Shown here: piece after piece, positions 1,248-44,119 of the stretch
How the letters are laid out: every line of letters begins with the position of its first letter
How positions within the stretch are numbered: position 1 is the first letter of the stretch
Origin: Candidatus Saccharimonadota bacterium
GTDB taxonomy: Bacteria; Patescibacteriota; Saccharimonadia; Saccharimonadales; JAXHNE01
Length of the DNA stretch: 64,000 nt
Assembly: GCA_034520885.1 (NCBI GenBank)
Contig: JAXHNE010000008.1
Span: 100 to 64,099, forward strand
Direction: 5' to 3'
The notes under the pieces: model-generated
What the model was told of the DNA's origin: nothing
Databases searched by the model: none
The model's input: the letters and a program-made list of their open reading frames with translations, nothing else
Program-made: the position numbers and the translations under genes

Positions 1248-1613
1248 ATGGCCAGGATAGATTACTTTCAGCGCAAACTCGACGAAAAACGGCGGTTGAC
1301 CATACCGACCGAACTACGCGACGAGTTCGAAAGCGGAGTAGTCATTACCCGGGGCTTTCAAAATTACTTGCACATGTACCCGAAATCGGTCTGGGACGAG
1401 TTGGTCGAGCCGAAACTCGAAGGGGATATCCTTGACGAGCGTGTGGCCGATATTAACGTAAAGTTCAGGATGGGTAAGACCGAGGCGACCTTGGATGTCA
1501 AACAGGGGCGAGTGTATGTTGAACAGCATTTACTCGACCACGCGGGCATCGATAAAGCGGTCGTAGCGGTTCGGGTCGGCAAGTACTGGCGCCTCATAGC
1601 AGAGACCGCTTAG
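1248..1613 (+). CDS. mraZ: Transcriptional regulator MraZ
   Basis: Two SpoVT/AbrB-like half domains (LDEKRRLTIP and LDVKQGRVYV). It occupies the first position of the dcw cluster. Confidence 0.85.
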   Translation: MARIDYFQRKLDEKRRLTIPTELRDEFESGVVITRGFQNYLHMYPKSVWDELVEPKLEGDILDERVADINVKFRMGKTEATLDVKQGRVYVEQHLLDHAGIDKAVVAVRVGKYWRLIAETA

Positions 1614-40648: not shown

Positions 40649-41610
40649 TACGTAATTTCTATACTTACCGGGCAGTGGTCGCTGCCCATGACTTGATCAT
40701 GAATTTCGGCTTTTTTAACCTTGTTTTTTATGGATTCCGATACCAAAAAGTAATCGATACGCCAGCCAACGTTGCGTTCGCGGGCGTTGGCCCAATGCGT
40801 CCACCAGGTGTAGTGGCCGTTGCCTTTTGTGAATAGGCGGAACGTATCCACGAAGCCGGCTTTTAACCAGTCGTCAAAGCCGCGGCGTTCTTCGTCCGTA
40901 AAGCCTTTTTTGCCTTTGTTGTCTTTTGGCCGCGCCAGGTCATCCTCGGTATGCGCGACGTTCATATCACCGCAATACACCACCGGCTTCGTTTTTTGCA
41001 GGTCCGCACAGTAAGCAATCATCGCTTGGTCCCATTTTTCGCGCAATGGCAGCCGGGTCAGATCGTTCTTGGCGTTGGGCGTGTAGGCGGTGACCACGTA
41101 GAATTCGTCGTACTCCGCGGCAACTACCCTGCCCTCTTGGGTGGCATCGCCATATCCATCGCCGTTTAAGCCGGCTTGTTTTACGAACTTTTCCGGGATG
41201 CCATTAATTACCGCGATGGGCTTGGTTTTGGTGAAAATCGCCGTGCCGCTGTAACCTTTTTTTTGCGCGCTGTTCCAGTATTCTTCGTAGTCGGGCAAAT
41301 CAACCGGAGACTGACCTTGTTCAGCCGGAAGATCGACACCGCCCGAACTTTCGGGCTGCGCAGCCAGCTCAGCGGCCATCCGTGACTTTTCGCTTCGCGT
41401 CGTAGCTTCGGCTACGCCTTGTCGCGATAAAGCTCCCGGCTGGTTCACTGCTCTGGCTTCTCGCCATTTCGAAAGTTGGACAGCGTCAATCTTGGTTTCT
41501 TGTAAGCACAGAATGTCCGGTTGGTGTTCTTTTATGAAAGGTTCGAATAATTCCTTGCGGTGCACCGCCCGAATGCCGTTTACGTTCCAAGAATAAATCT
41601 TCATCCCCAC
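40648..41610 (-). CDS. xth: Exodeoxyribonuclease III with ~55-aa internal low-complexity insertion
   Basis: Motifs WNVNGIR, LCLQETK, GDMNVAH, WRIDY and SDHCPV. Confidence 0.9.
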   Translation of the reverse strand: MGMKIYSWNVNGIRAVHRKELFEPFIKEHQPDILCLQETKIDAVQLSKWREARAVNQPGALSRQGVAEATTRSEKSRMAAELAAQPESSGGVDLPAEQGQSPVDLPDYEEYWNSAQKKGYSGTAIFTKTKPIAVINGIPEKFVKQAGLNGDGYGDATQEGRVVAAEYDEFYVVTAYTPNAKNDLTRLPLREKWDQAMIAYCADLQKTKPVVYCGDMNVAHTEDDLARPKDNKGKKGFTDEERRGFDDWLKAGFVDTFRLFTKGNGHYTWWTHWANARERNVGWRIDYFLVSESIKNKVKKAEIHDQVMGSDHCPVSIEIT

Positions 41611-41630
41611 AAGTATAGCATTCCAAAAAT

Positions 41631-41664
41631 TCTCATTTTCGTGACGATCGTCACGAAAATGAGA
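41631..41664. promoter_or_regulatory. 34-bp perfect palindrome in xth/pyrH divergent region (second copy 42282-42315)
   Basis: TCTCATTTTCGTGACGA|TCGTCACGAAAATGAGA. Confidence 0.45.
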
Positions 41665-41739
41665 GTTTATGGGGTAATTTTGGGCGGGATTTTTTTGTTA
41701 TTTCTGGTAAACTTAATGGCAATGTATAAACGCGTACTA

Positions 41740-42261
41740 CTAAAGATTTCCGGCGAGCAACTGGCCGGTGAATTCGAAGGCGGGATAGACCCTAAGCATG
41801 CTGGCTGGTTGGCCGATTAAGCCGGCTTGTTTTACGAACTTTTCCGGGATGCCATTAATTACCGCGATGGGCTTGGTTTTGGTGAAAATCGCCGTGCCGC
41901 TGTAACCTTTTTTTTGCGCGCTGTTCCAGTATTCTTCGTAGTCGGGCAAATCAACCGGAGACTGACCTTGTTCAGCCGGAAGATCGACACCGCCCGAACT
42001 TTCGGGCTGCGCAGCCAGCTCAGCGGCCATCCGTGACTTTTCGCTTCGCGTCGTAGCTTCGGCTACGCCTTGTCGCGATAAAGCTCCCGGCTGGTTCACT
42101 GCTCTGGCTTCTCGCCATTTCGAAAGTTGGACAGCGTCAATCTTGGTTTCTTGTAAGCACAGAATGTCCGGTTGGTGTTCTTTTATGAAAGGTTCGAATA
42201 ATTCCTTGCGGTGCACCGCCCGAATGCCGTTTACGTTCCAAGAATAAATCTTCATCCCCAC
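41740..42261 (-). pseudogene. Truncated duplicate of xth (N-terminal 147 codons, then out-of-context tail)
   Basis: Identical to the xth N-terminus and created by the 651-bp duplication. Confidence 0.7.
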
Positions 42262-42366
42262 AAGTATAGCATTCCAAAAATTCTCATTTTCGTGACGATC
42301 GTCACGAAAATGAGAGTTTATGGGGTAATTTTGAGCGGGATTTTTTTGTTATTTCTGGTAAACTTA

Positions 42367-43077
42367 ATGGCAATGTATAGACGCGTACTACTAAAGATTT
42401 CCGGCGAGCAACTGGCCGGTGAATTCGAAGGCGGGATAGACCCTAAGCATGCTGGCTGGTTGGCCGAGGAAGTAAAAAAAGCTACCAGTACCGGCGCGCA
42501 AGTAGTGATCATGGTCGGTGGCGGGAATTTCCTGCGTGGCGCGCAAATTGCCGGGCACGGCATTAAACGTGTCACGGCCGACCATATGGGCATGGTAGGA
42601 ACTTTAATGAACGCTTTGGCGCTTACCGATATTTTTGAATCGAAGGGCGTAAAAACCCGTTGTCTGAGCAATATTTTCGCCCAACAAGTGGCGGAGCCGT
42701 TCGTGCACCGCTTGGCCGAAAAGCATTTGCAAAAAGGCCGTGTGGTCATCGTGGCCGGTGGTATCGGCCGCCCCTACTTAACGACCGACACGGCGGCCGT
42801 CTCGCTTTCGCTGGAACTAAATTGCGATGTGGTGCTCAAGGCCACCAAAGTTGACGGCGTCTACGATAAAGATCCGAACGGGCACGACGACGCCCAAAAG
42901 TTGGATGAGCTTACCTACCAACAAGCCGTGGAAGACGGCGCTATTAAAATCATGGACAAAGCGGCCATGGGGCTGGCCATGGAACATAAAATGCCCCTGG
43001 TCATTTTTGATTTATTACACGAAGGCAACGTGGCCGGCGTTATCGAAGGCCGGTCTATCGGCACGACGGTTAGTTAA
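42367..43077 (+). CDS. pyrH: UMP kinase
   Basis: Motifs RVLLKISGE and VVIMVGGGNFLRG, with an amino-acid kinase fold. The start was taken at MAMYRR. A 5' stub of this gene lies at 41716-41816 in copy 1 of the duplication. Confidence 0.9.
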   Translation: MAMYRRVLLKISGEQLAGEFEGGIDPKHAGWLAEEVKKATSTGAQVVIMVGGGNFLRGAQIAGHGIKRVTADHMGMVGTLMNALALTDIFESKGVKTRCLSNIFAQQVAEPFVHRLAEKHLQKGRVVIVAGGIGRPYLTTDTAAVSLSLELNCDVVLKATKVDGVYDKDPNGHDDAQKLDELTYQQAVEDGAIKIMDKAAMGLAMEHKMPLVIFDLLHEGNVAGVIEGRSIGTTVS

Positions 43078-43222: not shown

Positions 43223-43547
43223 ATTTTTACAAACCTATCTATATCATTATATCAATCTTACTTAATACTAAGGGAACTACGTGCCGTCCGGTTCGTGGCG
43301 AAGTCATGTACCGTCCGGCGTGTGGCAGAGGAAGGGATGATGCGCATGAATCTGTGCGCCGAGTTTACTCGGGCAGCAGACTCATACACGAGCCCCTCTC
43401 GAGGGTTCGAATCCTTTTTCTTGCAACGAGGAGAAAAACGGCCAGAGAAAAATCTCTGACCGCTCTTCTCCTGGTTCTTCGACTCACTGCGTTCGCTCAG
43501 AATCATTCACCTTGCTGGCTTGCCATGAGCAAGCGCAGCGCGTCGAA

Positions 43548-43637
43548 TGGCGGAGAGAGAGGGATTCGAACCCTCGGTACGGTTGCCCGCACACACGCTT
43601 TCCAAGCGTGCTCCTTCGACCGCTCGGACACCTCTCC
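43548..43637 (-). tRNA. tRNA-Ser (anticodon GGA), CCA encoded
   Basis: Type II tRNA. The acceptor is GGAGAGG/TCTCTCC, the anticodon loop is TTGGAAA, there is a long variable arm, and the T-arm is GAGGGTTCGAATCCCTC. Confidence 0.9.
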
Positions 43638-43642
43638 AGCAC

Positions 43643-43894
43643 TTAAGAGTTTAGTATATCTCGGTATTGCTGTCTAAAAAGTCTTTTGCCTTCAGTGGTT
43701 TTTAAAAACCTTTCTCTTCTTTGGGCGTCGGGTTTTAACGAGTAAGCCTCATAGCCAATAAGTTTAACCGGTTGCCTATTCTTCGTTGCTTTTACTTTTT
43801 GGTTTTTATGCTCTAAGACTCTTTGCTTTAGTTGCCCGGTCATGCCGGTATATATTTGTTCATTGCTCAGCTTAAGAAAATACACGTAGTACAT
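43643..43894 (-). CDS. Stand-alone GIY-YIG nuclease-domain protein
   Basis: YVYFLKL...IYTGMT (GIY..YIG), R..EHK, and a conserved E in TEGKR. It starts 3 nt after the pseudo-tRNA and ends 6 nt before tRNA-Ser. Confidence 0.8.
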   Translation of the reverse strand: MYYVYFLKLSNEQIYTGMTGQLKQRVLEHKNQKVKATKNRQPVKLIGYEAYSLKPDAQRRERFLKTTEGKRLFRQQYRDILNS

Positions 43895-43896
43895 AA

Positions 43897-44025
43897 TGCG
43901 GATTATATAGGATTCGCCATGTCATGCGACATGGCGCCCTGTCGAATGACGGGGCGAACCCTCGGTACCCTTGCGGGTACACAGTCTTTCCAGGACTGCC
44001 AGTTCGACCGCTCCTGCATCTCTCC
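43897..44025 (-). pseudogene. tRNA-Ser(GGA)-like pseudogene with 39-nt hairpin insert in the T-loop and mutated 3' acceptor
   Basis: The 5' acceptor, D-arm, anticodon arm (CTGGAAA) and variable arm are recognisable. The T-loop TTCG|AAT is split by the insert at 43916-43954. The 3' acceptor ATAATCC cannot pair with GGAGAGA. Confidence 0.6.
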
Positions 44026-44047
44026 ACGTATAATAATTGTAAATGAA

Positions 44048-44119
44048 CCTTCGACCCACGGCATGTCGCCACCCCGTCATGTCGACATGGCATGGTGGCA
44101 TGCACTCGGACACCTCTCC
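44048..44119 (-). pseudogene. tRNA-Ser 5' fragment (acceptor + D-arm) with 47-nt hairpin insert in the D-loop
   Basis: GGAGAGGTGTCCGAGT[47 nt]GGTCGAAGG. The insert (44057-44103) contains the palindrome CCATGTCGACATGG and is related to the T-loop insert. Confidence 0.5.

What the first reader, a model, noticed from the sequence alone, without database searches (positions are those of the whole stretch)
43548..44119. GIY-YIG ORF nested precisely between tRNA-Ser(GGA) copies that carry related hairpin inserts in their D- and T-loops
On the - strand the order is as follows:

1. A tRNA-Ser 5' fragment (44119-44048) whose D-loop is split by a 47-nt insert.
2. A full-length tRNA-Ser(GGA)-like pseudogene (44025-43897) whose T-loop (TTCG|AAT) is split by a 39-nt insert and whose 3' acceptor is mutated.
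3. Three nt later, an 83-aa GIY-YIG nuclease ORF (43894-43643).
4. Six nt later, the intact tRNA-Ser(GGA) (43637-43548).

The two inserts are related: each is built around a hairpin or palindrome, with stems GCCATGTC/GACATGGC in one and CCATGTCGACATGG in the other. A further inverted T-arm fragment lies at ~43395-43420. The tight spacing and serial decay look like repeated invasion or repair of a tRNA gene by a small GIY-YIG cassette and/or a hairpin element that targets conserved tRNA loops. The gene is rescued each time by duplication. I am not aware of such an arrangement being described.
Basis: partly seen in the sequence, partly recalled or inferred. Interest (0 to 1): 0.65.

Follow-up and report, generated by a model that had tools for sequence, protein, structure and literature searches.

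The report
Nuclease-and-hairpin parasite of tRNA genes
A tiny DNA-cutting enzyme gene and a pair of short DNA hairpins sit inside a duplicated serine tRNA gene; the same layout recurs at tRNA genes in dozens of unrelated bacteria, which suggests an apparently undescribed selfish element that invades tRNA genes but always leaves a working copy.

Summary
On the minus strand of this Candidatus Saccharibacteria window the order is:
- a 26-nt tRNA-Ser 5' fragment split by a 46-nt insert;
- the first 71 nt of a second tRNA-Ser(GGA), ending at the T-loop TTCG;
- a 40-nt pair of hairpins, then AATCC;
- an 83-aa GIY-YIG gene;
- an intact tRNA-Ser(GGA).

It is one member of a large family. Of the 80 best homologues in other genomes, 60 have a same-strand tRNA starting within 80 nt of the stop codon, 8 have one ending at the start codon, and all 80 have a tRNA or the hairpins next to them.

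The hairpin pair (GTC-ATNC-GAC / GTC-GNAT-GAC) is conserved. It covaries almost entirely by Watson-Crick changes, and it interrupts a truncated copy of the neighbouring tRNA in the T-, anticodon- or D-loop.

Related Saccharibacteria have an empty site, or the same tRNA hit in the anticodon loop by a 39%-identical GIY-YIG with different hairpins.

The closest known system is the Ssn/NTS single-strand nuclease and hairpin pair (2025). That motif is not matched, and its paper never mentions tRNA.

Best reading: a hairpin-guided nuclease element that colonises tRNA genes and duplicates the tRNA segment. How it moves is inferred, not shown.

The parts
44103..44119 (-). frag1, 5' piece: tRNA-Ser positions 1-17 of the lineage's native ('N') type
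   Evidence: 15 nt are identical to the intact tRNA 5' end (D4). The same N-type 26-nt fragment sits at the same place in relatives L081 and L084.
44057..44102 (-). Degenerate, nested hairpin-pair insert in the D-loop of frag1
   Evidence: Similar to the reverse complement of the T-loop insert (score 17, 0 of 2000 shuffles). Its fold is not significant on its own.
44048..44056 (-). frag1, 3' piece: GGTCGAAGG (D-loop and D-stem 3' side)
   Evidence: Matches intact tRNA positions 18-26.
44026..44047 (-). Spacer TTCATTTACAATTATTATACGT, by eye similar to the sequence just upstream of the working tRNA in relative L081 (promoter-like)
   Evidence: Compared by eye with L081 CGTTTACAATAAACATAGT|GGAGAGG. 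The consensus promoter scan does not flag it.
43955..44025 (-). Truncated tRNA-Ser(GGA) copy ('F' type), positions 1 to T-loop TTCG
   Evidence: 76% identical to the intact gene. Read from the alignment, all three stems differ by compensatory changes. By my count about 86% identical to the working tRNA of relative L084.
43915..43954 (-). Hairpin pair. hp1 is CGCCCCGTC-ATTC-GACAGGGCG (43956-43935). hp2 is CGCCATGTC-GCAT-GACATGGCG (43936-43915). The pair lies between TTCG and AATCC of the T-loop.
   Evidence: Fold z = -5.0. It fits the family consensus. Covariation: 99.4% of cells paired and 11 of 16 pairs compensatory. These are the only such hairpins in the window.
43910..43914 (-). AATCC: the last target-derived bases (T-loop 3' side) before the ORF leader
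   Evidence: In the 26 type A loci measured, the tRNA-derived sequence continues only 0-8 nt past hp2, and 4-8 nt in 21 of them.
43895..43909 (-). AT-rich leader TATATAATCCGCATT
   Evidence: Sequence. Leaders are 4-39 nt and not conserved across loci.
43643..43894 (-). GIY-YIG nuclease gene: 83 aa, single domain
   Evidence: Pfam PF01541, E=3e-11. 100% identical to an NCBI Saccharibacteria MAG protein. Invariant Y3, Y5, G17, R25, H29 and E61. AlphaFold pLDDT 93; best folds are UPF0213 and the Slx1 nuclease domain.
43638..43642 (-). 5-nt spacer GTGCT between the stop codon and the tRNA
   Evidence: In type A loci this trailer ranges from a 7-nt overlap to 48 nt.
43548..43637 (-). Intact tRNA-Ser(GGA), native N type, with CCA encoded
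   Evidence: ARAGORN. Rfam tRNA 52.8 bits. Same type as the single tRNA at the empty sites L083, L211-L213 and L216.
43425..43476 (-). 24-nt-arm inverted repeat downstream of the tRNA (probable terminator)
   Evidence: I1. CsrC-terminator-like Rfam alignment.
43400..43414 (+). Inverted copy of the T-arm, CGAGGGTTCGAATCC. Its relation to the element is unresolved.
   Evidence: 100% complementary to 43562-43576 (I3). It lies in a terminator-like hairpin on the plus strand. A similar motif sits at the same place in L081 and L214.

Best explanation
The locus is one copy of a widespread selfish element. The element consists of a small, single-domain GIY-YIG nuclease of the Slx1/UPF0213/Ssn type and its cognate DNA hairpins, and it lives in tRNA genes.

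Shown:
- The nuclease gene lies between a truncated copy and an intact copy of the same tRNA.
- The truncated copy carries a conserved, inverted pair of hairpins (read as GTC-ATNC-GAC on one strand or the other) in a loop of the cloverleaf, usually the T-loop at TTCG|AATCC.
- tRNA-derived sequence usually stops only 4-8 nt beyond the hairpin pair, where the ORF module begins.
- The other edge of the duplicated segment is the end of the tRNA gene.
- Sites are empty in relatives, and the same gene can be hit independently by a divergent nuclease with different hairpins.

Inferred:
- By analogy with SsnA, the nuclease binds its hairpin in single-stranded DNA and cuts a few nucleotides 5' of it. 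That cut position would mark the junction.
- tRNA genes are hit because their arms are natural look-alikes when single-stranded. The T-loop TTCGAAT resembles the hp2 core GTC-GAAT-GAC.
- Repair of the break copies the element and duplicates a tRNA segment, giving the pattern S-E-S. One working tRNA always survives, and the broken copy then accumulates further hairpins.
- The universal conservation of tRNA sequence provides portable homology for spread between lineages. This would explain 58-75% protein identity across phyla and the foreign-type tRNA allele in the window.
For: Identity of the parts.

Family-wide architecture:
- 60 of 80 loci have a tRNA within 80 nt downstream on the same strand, 8 of 80 have one directly upstream, and 80 of 80 have a tRNA and/or hairpins adjacent. 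Partners cover at least 12 isoacceptor types.
- Hairpin loops ATNC (86 cases) and GNAT (79 cases) dominate; every other loop occurs 1-2 times.
- 56 hairpin pairs were found, flanked by GGTT and AATC.
- Covariation: 99.4% of cells paired, 85 double changes against 25 in shuffles (0 of 500 reach it), and only 3 G-U pairs in 544 cells. This argues for DNA-level pairing.

The truncated copies:
- They align from tRNA position 1 and are up to 100% identical to the intact gene, apart from a 40-nt T-loop insert and 21-22-nt single hairpins in D and anticodon loops.
- Junctions lie 4-8 nt beyond hp2 in 21 of the 26 type A loci measured. In type B loci, 5-7 nt precede hp1.

Signs of a selfish repeat:
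- Truncated ORFs in L024, L040, L041, L046 and L080.
- Several copies per genome, and tandem arrays.
- 21 of 80 ORFs lie within 400 nt of a contig end.

Synteny:
- Empty sites in L083, L211-L213 and L216.
- An independent anticodon-loop insertion in L214/L215 by a 39%-identical GIY-YIG with different hairpins.

Analogy with Ssn:
- SsnA is a 94-aa single-domain GIY-YIG that binds a hairpin repeat only as ssDNA and cuts a few nt upstream of it (PMC11893778).
- NTS-flanked Ssn-like ORFs hit the family profile at 25-33 bits.
- Proteins next to the 36-nt D-loop hairpin subtype are more alike (73%) than they are to the rest (59%).
Against: - No biochemical or population evidence of cutting or movement is available.
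- GIY-YIG enzymes are hydrolytic, so strand joining must come from the host. No step that would create the tRNA duplication is demonstrated.
- The ORF module has no conserved ends (leader 4-39 nt; trailer from a 7-nt overlap to 48 nt). That fits repair-mediated copying but not a defined transposon.
- The hairpins do not match the published Ssn motif (0 of 34).
- Both hairpins lie on one side of the ORF, not on either side as in NTS-ssnA-NTS.
- The intact tRNA next to the ORF keeps an unaltered T-loop. Something must limit re-cutting, or re-cutting is what produces the serial remnants.
- Of the inserts that contain a canonical hairpin core, 12 of 51 map outside the three loops (the alignments there are loose).
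- In the window the two tRNA copies are only 76% identical, which a purely local duplication does not explain.
Confidence: 0.6

Rival explanations
1. Classical free-standing homing endonuclease. The GIY-YIG protein cuts double-stranded tRNA genes that lack it, as T4 SegB does. It is copied in by double-strand-break repair using the tRNA as homology. The hairpins are only an insertion that destroys the recognition site in the spare copy.
For: - T4 SegB is a GIY-YIG homing endonuclease located in, and cutting, a tRNA gene cluster (PMC2330249).
- Both empty and occupied alleles exist.
- The window's disrupted copy and intact copy are different alleles, as expected after inter-lineage conversion.
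- The TTCGAA core of the T-loop is palindromic.
Against: - The protein is 83 aa with only the catalytic domain and no DNA-binding domain.
- The intact neighbouring tRNA, and every other tRNA in the cell, would keep the target.
- The hairpins are strongly conserved, covary, and are reinserted singly in other loops of 100%-identical copies. A passive site-breaker would not do that.
- Homing does not normally duplicate the target.
- The best structural and sequence relatives are UPF0213, Slx1 and Ssn, not I-TevI.
Confidence: 0.2
2. A domesticated or host-serving system. As proposed for SsnA/NTS in Neisseria, the nuclease and its hairpins modulate recombination of incoming single-stranded DNA, or the expression or processing of tRNA operons. 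The tRNA fragments are by-products of unrelated recombination at a hotspot.
For: - SsnA/NTS modulates natural transformation (PMC11893778).
- The ORF is well conserved (mean column identity 68%).
- The same locus in relatives L081 and L084 carries other inserts and tRNA fragments without any GIY-YIG gene, so the site is a hotspot in its own right.
Against: - Presence is patchy among close relatives.
- There are several copies per genome, decayed ORFs and tandem remnants.
- The partner tRNA differs from locus to locus.
- Near-identical architecture recurs across distant phyla.
- These are the marks of a selfish repeat, not of a housekeeping function.
Confidence: 0.12
3. Assembly artefact or chance. 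The tandem tRNA copies come from collapsed or chimeric strain variants in a metagenome-assembled genome.
For: - The window comes from a MAG.
- It contains a suspicious 651-nt tandem duplication 2 kb away.
- Many homologous loci end at contig breaks.
Against: - The same ordered architecture, with precise junctions, recurs in more than 60 assemblies made by different groups and assemblers, including a single-cell genome (L032).
- The copies in the window differ by compensatory changes.
- The hairpins covary.
Confidence: 0.02

Closest known systems
Ssn family nucleases with NTS/SRM hairpin repeats (Chenal et al., Nat Commun 2025, PMC11893778)
   Same: - A single-domain GIY-YIG protein of about 90 aa.
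- The gene is physically associated with short hairpin-forming repeats, which often occur as inverted doublets.
- Nuclease and hairpin appear to co-vary.
- SsnA cuts a few nt 5' of the hairpin in ssDNA, which fits the 4-8-nt junction offset seen here.
- NTS-flanked Ssn-like ORFs are detectable homologues (25-33 bits).
   Different: - The hairpins do not match NTS or the SRM motif (0 of 34).
- Both hairpins lie on one side of the ORF.
- They are inserted inside tRNA gene copies, with duplication of the tRNA. The Ssn paper contains no mention of tRNA, and the three NTS-flanked ORFs examined have no tRNA nearby.
- The family scores at least as well against UPF0213 (39.8 bits) as against Ssn-like proteins.
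- Its hosts are mainly Patescibacteria.
REP/REPIN repeats with RAYT, and IS200/IS605 (hairpin-dependent single-strand transposition)
   Same: - Short palindromic hairpins occurring as inverted doublets.
- The doublets are associated with one small nuclease gene.
- Recognition probably occurs on single-stranded DNA.
   Different: - The enzyme is a hydrolytic GIY-YIG, not an HUH/Y1 transposase.
- The targets are tRNA loops, not extragenic sites or a tetranucleotide.
- The target is duplicated over tens of nucleotides.
Phage T4 SegB and other free-standing GIY-YIG homing endonucleases (PMC2330249)
   Same: - GIY-YIG chemistry.
- The gene is embedded among tRNA genes.
- Spread is expected to occur by repair from an occupied allele.
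   Different: - Seg proteins are much larger and have DNA-binding domains.
- They have no hairpins and cause no duplication of the tRNA.
- They are phage-borne. This family is essentially absent from viral contigs.
Integrase-driven genomic islands and prophages that integrate into tRNA genes
   Same: - They use a tRNA gene as the landing site.
- They keep the gene functional by supplying a duplicate of the part displaced.
   Different: - There is no integrase.
- The element is about 0.3-0.4 kb.
- It usually duplicates the 5' part.
- The break point lies inside loops and is marked by hairpins.
Slx1 and UPF0213 (YhbQ-like) structure-specific GIY-YIG nucleases
   Same: These are the best fold and sequence matches (1zg2, 1ywl, Slx1; TM 0.63-0.65). 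Slx1 cuts branched and hairpin DNA.
   Different: None of them is known to be associated with repeats or with tRNA genes.

Membership tests
GIY-YIG nuclease superfamily (Pfam PF01541) | Significant match to the GIY-YIG domain model | tested here: met
   E=3.1e-11 and 43.8 bits against a cut-off of 22.6, covering residues 1-70.
GIY-YIG nuclease superfamily (Pfam PF01541) | Conserved catalytic residues (two Tyr, Arg, His/Tyr, Glu) and the beta-beta-alpha-beta-alpha fold | tested here: met
   Y3, Y5, G17, R25, H29 and E61 are invariant and Y15 nearly invariant in 20 sequences. E61 aligns with the REKQ glutamate of Ssn-like proteins. AlphaFold pLDDT is 93 with the expected strand/helix order. PDB fold hits are UPF0213, Slx1 and I-TevI.
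Ssn site-specific ssDNA nucleases (CDD cd10448) | Single-domain GIY-YIG protein of about 90-100 aa with no DNA-binding domain | tested here: met
   83 aa with one domain. Relatives are mostly 80-160 aa.
Ssn site-specific ssDNA nucleases (CDD cd10448) | Placement in the cd10448 clade, or close homology to SsnA | tested here: inconclusive
   No CDD tool and no SsnA sequence were available. Three NTS-flanked 96-97-aa ORFs from metagenomes hit the family profile at only 25-33 bits over residues 4-66. UPF0213 BH0048 scores 39.8 bits.
Ssn site-specific ssDNA nucleases (CDD cd10448) | Gene flanked by NTS/SRM repeats (HGTCWY...RNCYNB) | tested here: not met
   The SRM pattern matches 0 of 34 hairpin-pair sequences and finds nothing in the window, while the NTS control matches. 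Other, cognate hairpins are present, sharing only GTCAT.
Ssn site-specific ssDNA nucleases (CDD cd10448) | Binds the hairpin only as ssDNA and cuts a few nt upstream of it | not testable with these tools
   Indirect evidence only. Junctions lie 4-8 nt (21 of 26 type A loci) or 5-7 nt (type B) from the hairpin, on the side that is 5' when the hairpin is read as GTC-ATNC-GAC.
Free-standing GIY-YIG homing endonucleases (Seg/I-Tev type) | N-terminal GIY-YIG domain plus linker and C-terminal DNA-binding domain | tested here: not met
   83 aa with the catalytic domain only.
Free-standing GIY-YIG homing endonucleases (Seg/I-Tev type) | Occupied and empty alleles of the same site in related genomes | tested here: met
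   Empty sites: L083, L211-L213 and L216. Occupied sites: the window and L214/L215.
Integrase-type tRNA-integrating elements | Tyrosine or serine recombinase gene and att repeats formed by the tRNA 3' end | tested here: not met
   The only ORF between the tRNA copies is the GIY-YIG gene. The 5' part is the one duplicated in the window and in 60 of 80 loci.
IS200/IS605 and REP-RAYT | HUH/Y1 transposase | tested here: not met
   Pfam gives GIY-YIG as the only hit.
tRNA introns (group I, or archaeal bulge-helix-bulge) | The insert is followed by the remaining 3' part of the tRNA, so that splicing restores a tRNA; for group I, a ribozyme fold | tested here: not met
   Only AATCC follows the insert in the window, and 0-8 nt follow it elsewhere. 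Rfam finds no intron family.

The most novel reading that the evidence does not exclude
This would be a previously unrecognised class of mobile element with these properties:
- A hydrolytic, hairpin-guided single-strand DNA nuclease recognises the folded arms of tRNA genes as mimics of its own hairpin.
- It inserts hairpins and its own gene into the loops.
- The mechanism of insertion itself duplicates the tRNA segment, so the essential gene is never lost.
- It thereby drives horizontal replacement of tRNA alleles across bacterial phyla, probably through natural transformation in Patescibacteria.
Probability: 0.4. Interest if true: 0.85.

Novelty: new variant of a known kind. Interest (0 to 1): 0.78.

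Why it matters
- It would add tRNA genes to the targets of nuclease-plus-hairpin repeat systems. It would also give the recently discovered Ssn-type single-strand nucleases a clear selfish, genome-shaping role.
- It offers a concrete explanation for the tRNA fragments, tandem tRNA remnants and contig breaks that are common in Patescibacteria assemblies, and for the replacement of tRNA alleles between lineages.
- It shows a way for an element to occupy an essential single-copy gene at no cost.
- It supplies many natural nuclease/hairpin pairs with apparently different specificities. This is the kind of reagent wanted for cutting single-stranded DNA at chosen sites.
- The predictions can be tested directly with oligonucleotides and one 83-aa protein.

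Tried and rejected
(1) Chimeric tRNA idea. I first argued that the intact tRNA is a chimera of an element-borne 5' part and a host 3' part. The argument was that copy2's GGAGAGA pairs perfectly with the 3' strand TCTCTCC, whereas the intact 5' end gives G7-U66. Rejected: the single tRNA at empty sites in relatives (L083, L081) has the same G7-U66, so that wobble pair is native.

(2) Intron readings (group I, or archaeal loop introns). Rejected because no 3' tRNA half follows the insert and Rfam gives no hit.

(3) A known RNA family for the inserts, or for the roughly 90-nt insert in relatives. Rfam finds none.

(4) A leaderless-mRNA promoter at TATATAAT, just 5' of the ATG. The consensus scan does not call it. 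The only promoter-like site (43676-43648) is at chance level.

(5) Plasmid or phage carriage. There is one weak plasmid hit and one distant viral hit in 2.9 million contigs.

(6) Exact-protein lookup of the window ORF in assemblies. Nothing is on record.

(7) A strain-level empty/occupied pair through the flanking genes of another locus (P0094). All six places shown had the same occupied context, and flanking proteins from fetched loci cannot be looked up.

(8) A match of the hairpins to the published SRM motif. None.

(9) My regex for sorting T-loop-type loci failed. Only the D-loop subtype comparison from that call is used.

(10) The loose gapped alignments produce spurious small 'inserts'. 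Only inserts containing a canonical hairpin core are counted.
Full report
**Source and observation**

The GIY-YIG protein is 100% identical to an NCBI protein from a Candidatus Saccharibacteria MAG on a 105.6-kb contig.

- **frag1.** GGAGAGGTGTCCGAGTG (44119-44103), then a 46-nt insert (44102-44057), then GGTCGAAGG (44056-44048). This is the first 26 nt of a tRNA-Ser split in the D-loop.
- **copy2.** After a 22-nt spacer come 71 nt of a tRNA-Ser(GGA) running to the T-loop TTCG (44025-43955). Then follow a 40-nt insert (43954-43915), AATCC, and a 15-nt AT-rich leader.
- **ORF.** 83 aa (43894-43643), Pfam GIY-YIG E=3e-11.
- **Intact tRNA.** Five nt after the stop codon lies tRNA-Ser(GGA) at 43637-43548 (ARAGORN; Rfam 52.8 bits).

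First, copy2 has no 3' acceptor half at all. Second, copy2 is not a decayed duplicate. It is 76% identical to the intact gene, and by my reading of the alignment the D, anticodon and variable stems differ by compensatory changes. It is therefore a different, well-formed allele.

The 40-nt insert folds into two hairpins, CGCCCCGTC-ATTC-GACAGGGCG and CGCCATGTC-GCAT-GACATGGCG (z = -5). The D-loop insert is not significantly structured on its own. It is, however, significantly similar to the reverse complement of the T-loop insert (0 of 2000 shuffles). Hairpins of this kind occur nowhere else in the 64 kb.

**The family**

The protein has hundreds of close relatives at 58-75% identity. Most are in Patescibacteria; some are in MAGs labelled Gammaproteobacteria, Verrucomicrobiota, Omnitrophota or Bacteroidetes. 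A profile search of 1.84 billion cluster representatives finds 13,229 small GIY-YIG relatives at E<=1e-3 and 1,999 at E<=1e-10.

I fetched the 80 best genomic loci, chosen by protein similarity alone, and scanned them for tRNAs.

| Class | Loci | Layout |
|---|---|---|
| Type A | 60 | same-strand tRNA starts within 80 nt of the end of the protein match |
| Type B | 8 | tRNA ends at the start codon |
| No adjacent tRNA called | 12 | 5 run off the contig within 66 nt; all 12 have the hairpin core next to the ORF |

The partner tRNAs are Ser (all four anticodons, 40 loci), Lys, Arg, Gly, Gln, Pro, Met, Cys, Thr and Asn. For a genome with roughly 45 tRNA genes per megabase, my estimate of the chance expectation is about 0.2% per gene.

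**Architecture**

Printing the junctions shows one plan.

- **Type A (as in the window):** [tRNA from position 1 up to a loop] - hp1 - hp2 - [a few more tRNA bases] - AT-rich leader - ORF - short trailer - [intact tRNA of the same isoacceptor].
- **Type B:** [intact tRNA] - ORF - GGGTTCG - hp1 - hp2 - [AATCC plus the 3' end of the same tRNA].

The canonical T-loop insert reads GGTT|CGCCNNGTC-ATNC-GACNNGGCG/CGCCNNGTC-GNAT-GACNNGGCG|AATCC, with the middle CG shared by the two hairpins. That is 40 nt between TTCG and AATCC. The window matches this exactly.

The two loops are reverse complements of each other, so the pair is an inverted doublet of one hairpin. Loops ATNC (86 cases) and GNAT (79 cases) dominate; all other loops occur once or twice.

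I took 34 distinct pairs, selected only on the invariant core. In these, 99.4% of stem cells pair and 11 of 16 pairs show compensatory changes. There are 85 double changes against 25 in shuffles (0 of 500 shuffles reach the observed value). Slid-register controls fall to 16-41% paired. Only 3 of 544 cells are G-U. I take this as evidence that pairing matters in DNA, on both strands, rather than in RNA.

Other insertion sites occur:
- anticodon loops of Ser-CGA, Ser-TGA, Arg-GCG and Pro;
- the D-loop, with a 36-nt subtype in Saccharibacteria class I tRNAs.

Proteins next to that D-loop subtype are 73% identical to one another but 59% identical to the rest. This suggests that nuclease and hairpin co-vary.

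**The duplicated tRNA**

In type A loci the interrupted copy aligns from tRNA position 1 and is often 95-100% identical to the intact gene. The exceptions are the 40-nt T-loop insert and additional single 21-22-nt hairpins in the D-loop (around positions 13-22) and the anticodon loop (around position 34). L011, L050 and L078 have three inserts each in otherwise 100%-identical copies.

Among inserts containing a canonical core, 25 are in the T-loop, 10 in the D-loop or arm, 4 in the anticodon loop and 12 elsewhere (those alignments are loose). Hairpin insertion is therefore fast relative to point mutation, and it mostly hits the loops of the cloverleaf.

The left edge of the duplication lies at tRNA position 1. 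In L008 and L022 (and more weakly L024 and L078) some of the upstream flank is shared as well.

The loop-side edge is tight.
- In 26 type A loci measured, tRNA-derived sequence continues 0-8 nt beyond hp2, and 4-8 nt in 21 of them. These bases match the local tRNA: AATCC, ATTCC, AGTCCC.
- In type B loci, only 5-7 nt (GGGTTCG) precede hp1.

Both junctions lie on the side that is 5' when the adjacent hairpin is read as GTC-ATNC-GAC.

The general form is S-E-S. S is a tRNA segment bounded by the gene end and by a point a few nt from the hairpins. The copy of S that is not joined to the rest of the tRNA carries the hairpins.

ORF-less remnants are common. Intact tRNAs are followed by one to three tandem units of [spacer + GGTTCG-hp-hp + 3' part], as in L075, L022, L043, L062, L079 and L005.

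Other signs of a selfish repeat:
- five ORFs are truncated;
- several genomes or loci carry two or more copies;
- 21 of 80 ORFs lie within 400 nt of a contig end.

**Empty and occupied sites at this very locus**

I used the neighbouring ABC ATPase to find relatives and fetched their loci.

| Locus | ABC ATPase identity | State of the tRNA-Ser(GGA) site |
|---|---|---|
| L083 | 83% | one tRNA of the 'N' type (same type as the window's intact gene); empty |
| L211-L213 | 85% | one N-type tRNA; empty |
| L216 | 80% | one N-type tRNA; empty |
| L214/L215 | 83% | occupied in the anticodon loop, see below |
| L081/L082, L084 | 87%, 86% | N-type 26-nt fragment shared with the window, plus a different insert, see below |

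In L214/L215 the sequence is N(1-35) - CCACCGCCTATGGCGGGGTCCCGCTATAGGCGGG - AAAGCG - leader - a 79-aa GIY-YIG - intact N-type tRNA. That GIY-YIG is only 39% identical to the window's, and its hairpins are different. This is the same architecture produced by a divergent nuclease/hairpin pair.

L081/L082 and L084 share the window's N-type 26-nt fragment, so frag1 is old. They carry a different insert of about 86-92 nt and no GIY-YIG gene (see the passing notes). In L084 the working tRNA is the 'F' type, by my count about 86% identical to the window's copy2, and the N-type copy is the interrupted one.

So two alleles of this tRNA alternate as the working gene among close relatives. This argues for allele replacement accompanying these insertions. 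The direction of replacement in the window is not resolved.

**The protein**

AlphaFold gives a confident single GIY-YIG domain (pLDDT 93). The best solved folds are UPF0213 BH0048, the Slx1 nuclease domain (TM 0.63-0.65) and EF2693; I-TevI is much weaker. By sequence, 1zg2 scores E=3.6e-9 and 1ywl 7.5e-8.

**Closest known system**

Literature searches found no description of GIY-YIG genes with hairpins in tRNA genes. They did find the Ssn family (PMC11893778).

- SsnA of N. meningitidis is a 94-aa single-domain GIY-YIG.
- It binds the hairpin repeat NTS only as single-stranded DNA and cuts a few nt upstream of it.
- Homologues are flanked by related hairpins (SRM), and the layout NTS-ssnA-NTS resembles an insertion sequence.
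- That paper does not contain the word tRNA.

I scanned metagenomes for NTS. Three NTS-associated 96-97-aa ORFs hit this family's profile at 25-33 bits over residues 4-66, and they identify E61 as the catalytic glutamate. None of the three has a tRNA nearby. The SRM pattern matches none of 34 hairpin pairs and nothing in the window.

I therefore file the element as working like Ssn/NTS but not as a demonstrated member. It is a sister small GIY-YIG family with its own hairpins and a new target.

**Mechanism (inference)**

1. The nuclease binds its hairpin in single-stranded DNA and nicks 4-8 nt 5' of it. With an inverted doublet this gives one nick on each strand, flanking the pair. These are exactly the positions where the ORF module is joined.
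2. tRNA genes are targeted because their arms form hairpins when single-stranded. The T-loop TTCGAAT resembles the hp2 core GTC-GAAT-GAC.
3. Repair or template switching copies hairpins and ORF and duplicates the tRNA segment. A working gene therefore always remains.
4. The spare copy then collects more hairpins.
5. In type A loci the native tRNA promoter would drive the truncated copy, the ORF and the tRNA as one transcript.
6. tRNA conservation supplies homology for transfer between lineages.

The family is almost absent from viral contigs and plasmids.

What is not explained:
- the enzymology of joining;
- why the ORF module has no fixed ends;
- how the intact neighbour escapes cutting;
- the origin of the 76%-identical allele in the window.

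**Verdict**

The element is a new, tRNA-targeting variant of the nuclease-plus-hairpin repeat systems. It is widespread and, as far as I could find, undescribed.

Noticed in passing
window 41168-42469: A 651-nt segment is repeated in tandem. It covers the 5' half of the exonuclease III gene, the intergenic region and the first ~60 codons of pyrH. The junction reads ...GGCTGGTTGGCCGA|TTAAGCCGGC. Relatives have single copies. It could be a real duplication or an assembly artefact.
   Followed up: partly
L081 3795-3886 (minus strand); L084 about 1700-1790 and 1480-1565 (minus strand): At the same tRNA-Ser(GGA) locus, relatives carry a different homologous insert of 86-92 nt. It has four predicted hairpins, and 6 pairs are compensatory among the 3 copies. 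It sits after tRNA position 26 or in the T-loop, again next to a truncated copy plus an intact tRNA. There is no GIY-YIG gene and no Rfam match. It may be a second kind of tRNA-loop-targeting element.
   Followed up: partly
L214 1890-2330 and L215 1-125 (loci oriented with the ABC gene on the plus strand): The same tRNA-Ser(GGA) gene is hit independently in the anticodon loop. The GIY-YIG there is 79 aa and 39% identical to the window's, and its hairpins are different (CCGCCTATGGCGG / CCGCTATAGGCGG). The upstream copy is 100% identical to the intact tRNA over positions 1-35.
   Followed up: yes
window 43400-43414 and 43389-43409 (plus strand): A perfect inverted copy of the T-arm lies inside a terminator-like hairpin downstream of the tRNA terminator. 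A similar GGNTTCGAAC motif sits at the equivalent place in L081 and L214. In L081 it lies between the tRNA and a duplicated 3' end plus terminator. Its meaning is unknown.
   Followed up: partly
window 43281-43326 (plus strand); L084 downstream of the intact tRNA: Short direct repeats lie downstream of the tRNA locus. In the window they are GTGCCGTCCGGTTCGTGGC and GTACCGTCCGGCGTGTGGC. In L084, ACGGTACATGGCTCCGCCAACGAA occurs twice and looks like tRNA 3'-end debris.
   Followed up: no
L002 1-640; L075 3357-3540; L022 2450-2790: There are tandem arrays. L002 has two GIY-YIG ORFs head to tail, each followed by GGTTCG-hp-hp-3' end. L075 and L022 have three or more repeats of [spacer + GGTTCG-hp-hp + tRNA 3' part] after an intact tRNA. 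L022 contains a run of N there, so the assembly is uncertain.
   Followed up: partly
L063 2891-2960; L030 1700-1765; L068 3429-3500: Hairpins are nested inside the loop of another hairpin. An example is GTCAGGTC[CACGGCATGTCGCCATGGCGTG]CGAATGACCTGAC. The inner sequence recurs in the window's D-loop insert (44056-44071, plus strand).
   Followed up: no
loci L086, L094, L095, L097, L113, L136, L142: Exact NTS repeats of the Neisseria type are common in soil, sludge and freshwater metagenome contigs. They often occur as closely spaced +/- doublets.
   Followed up: no
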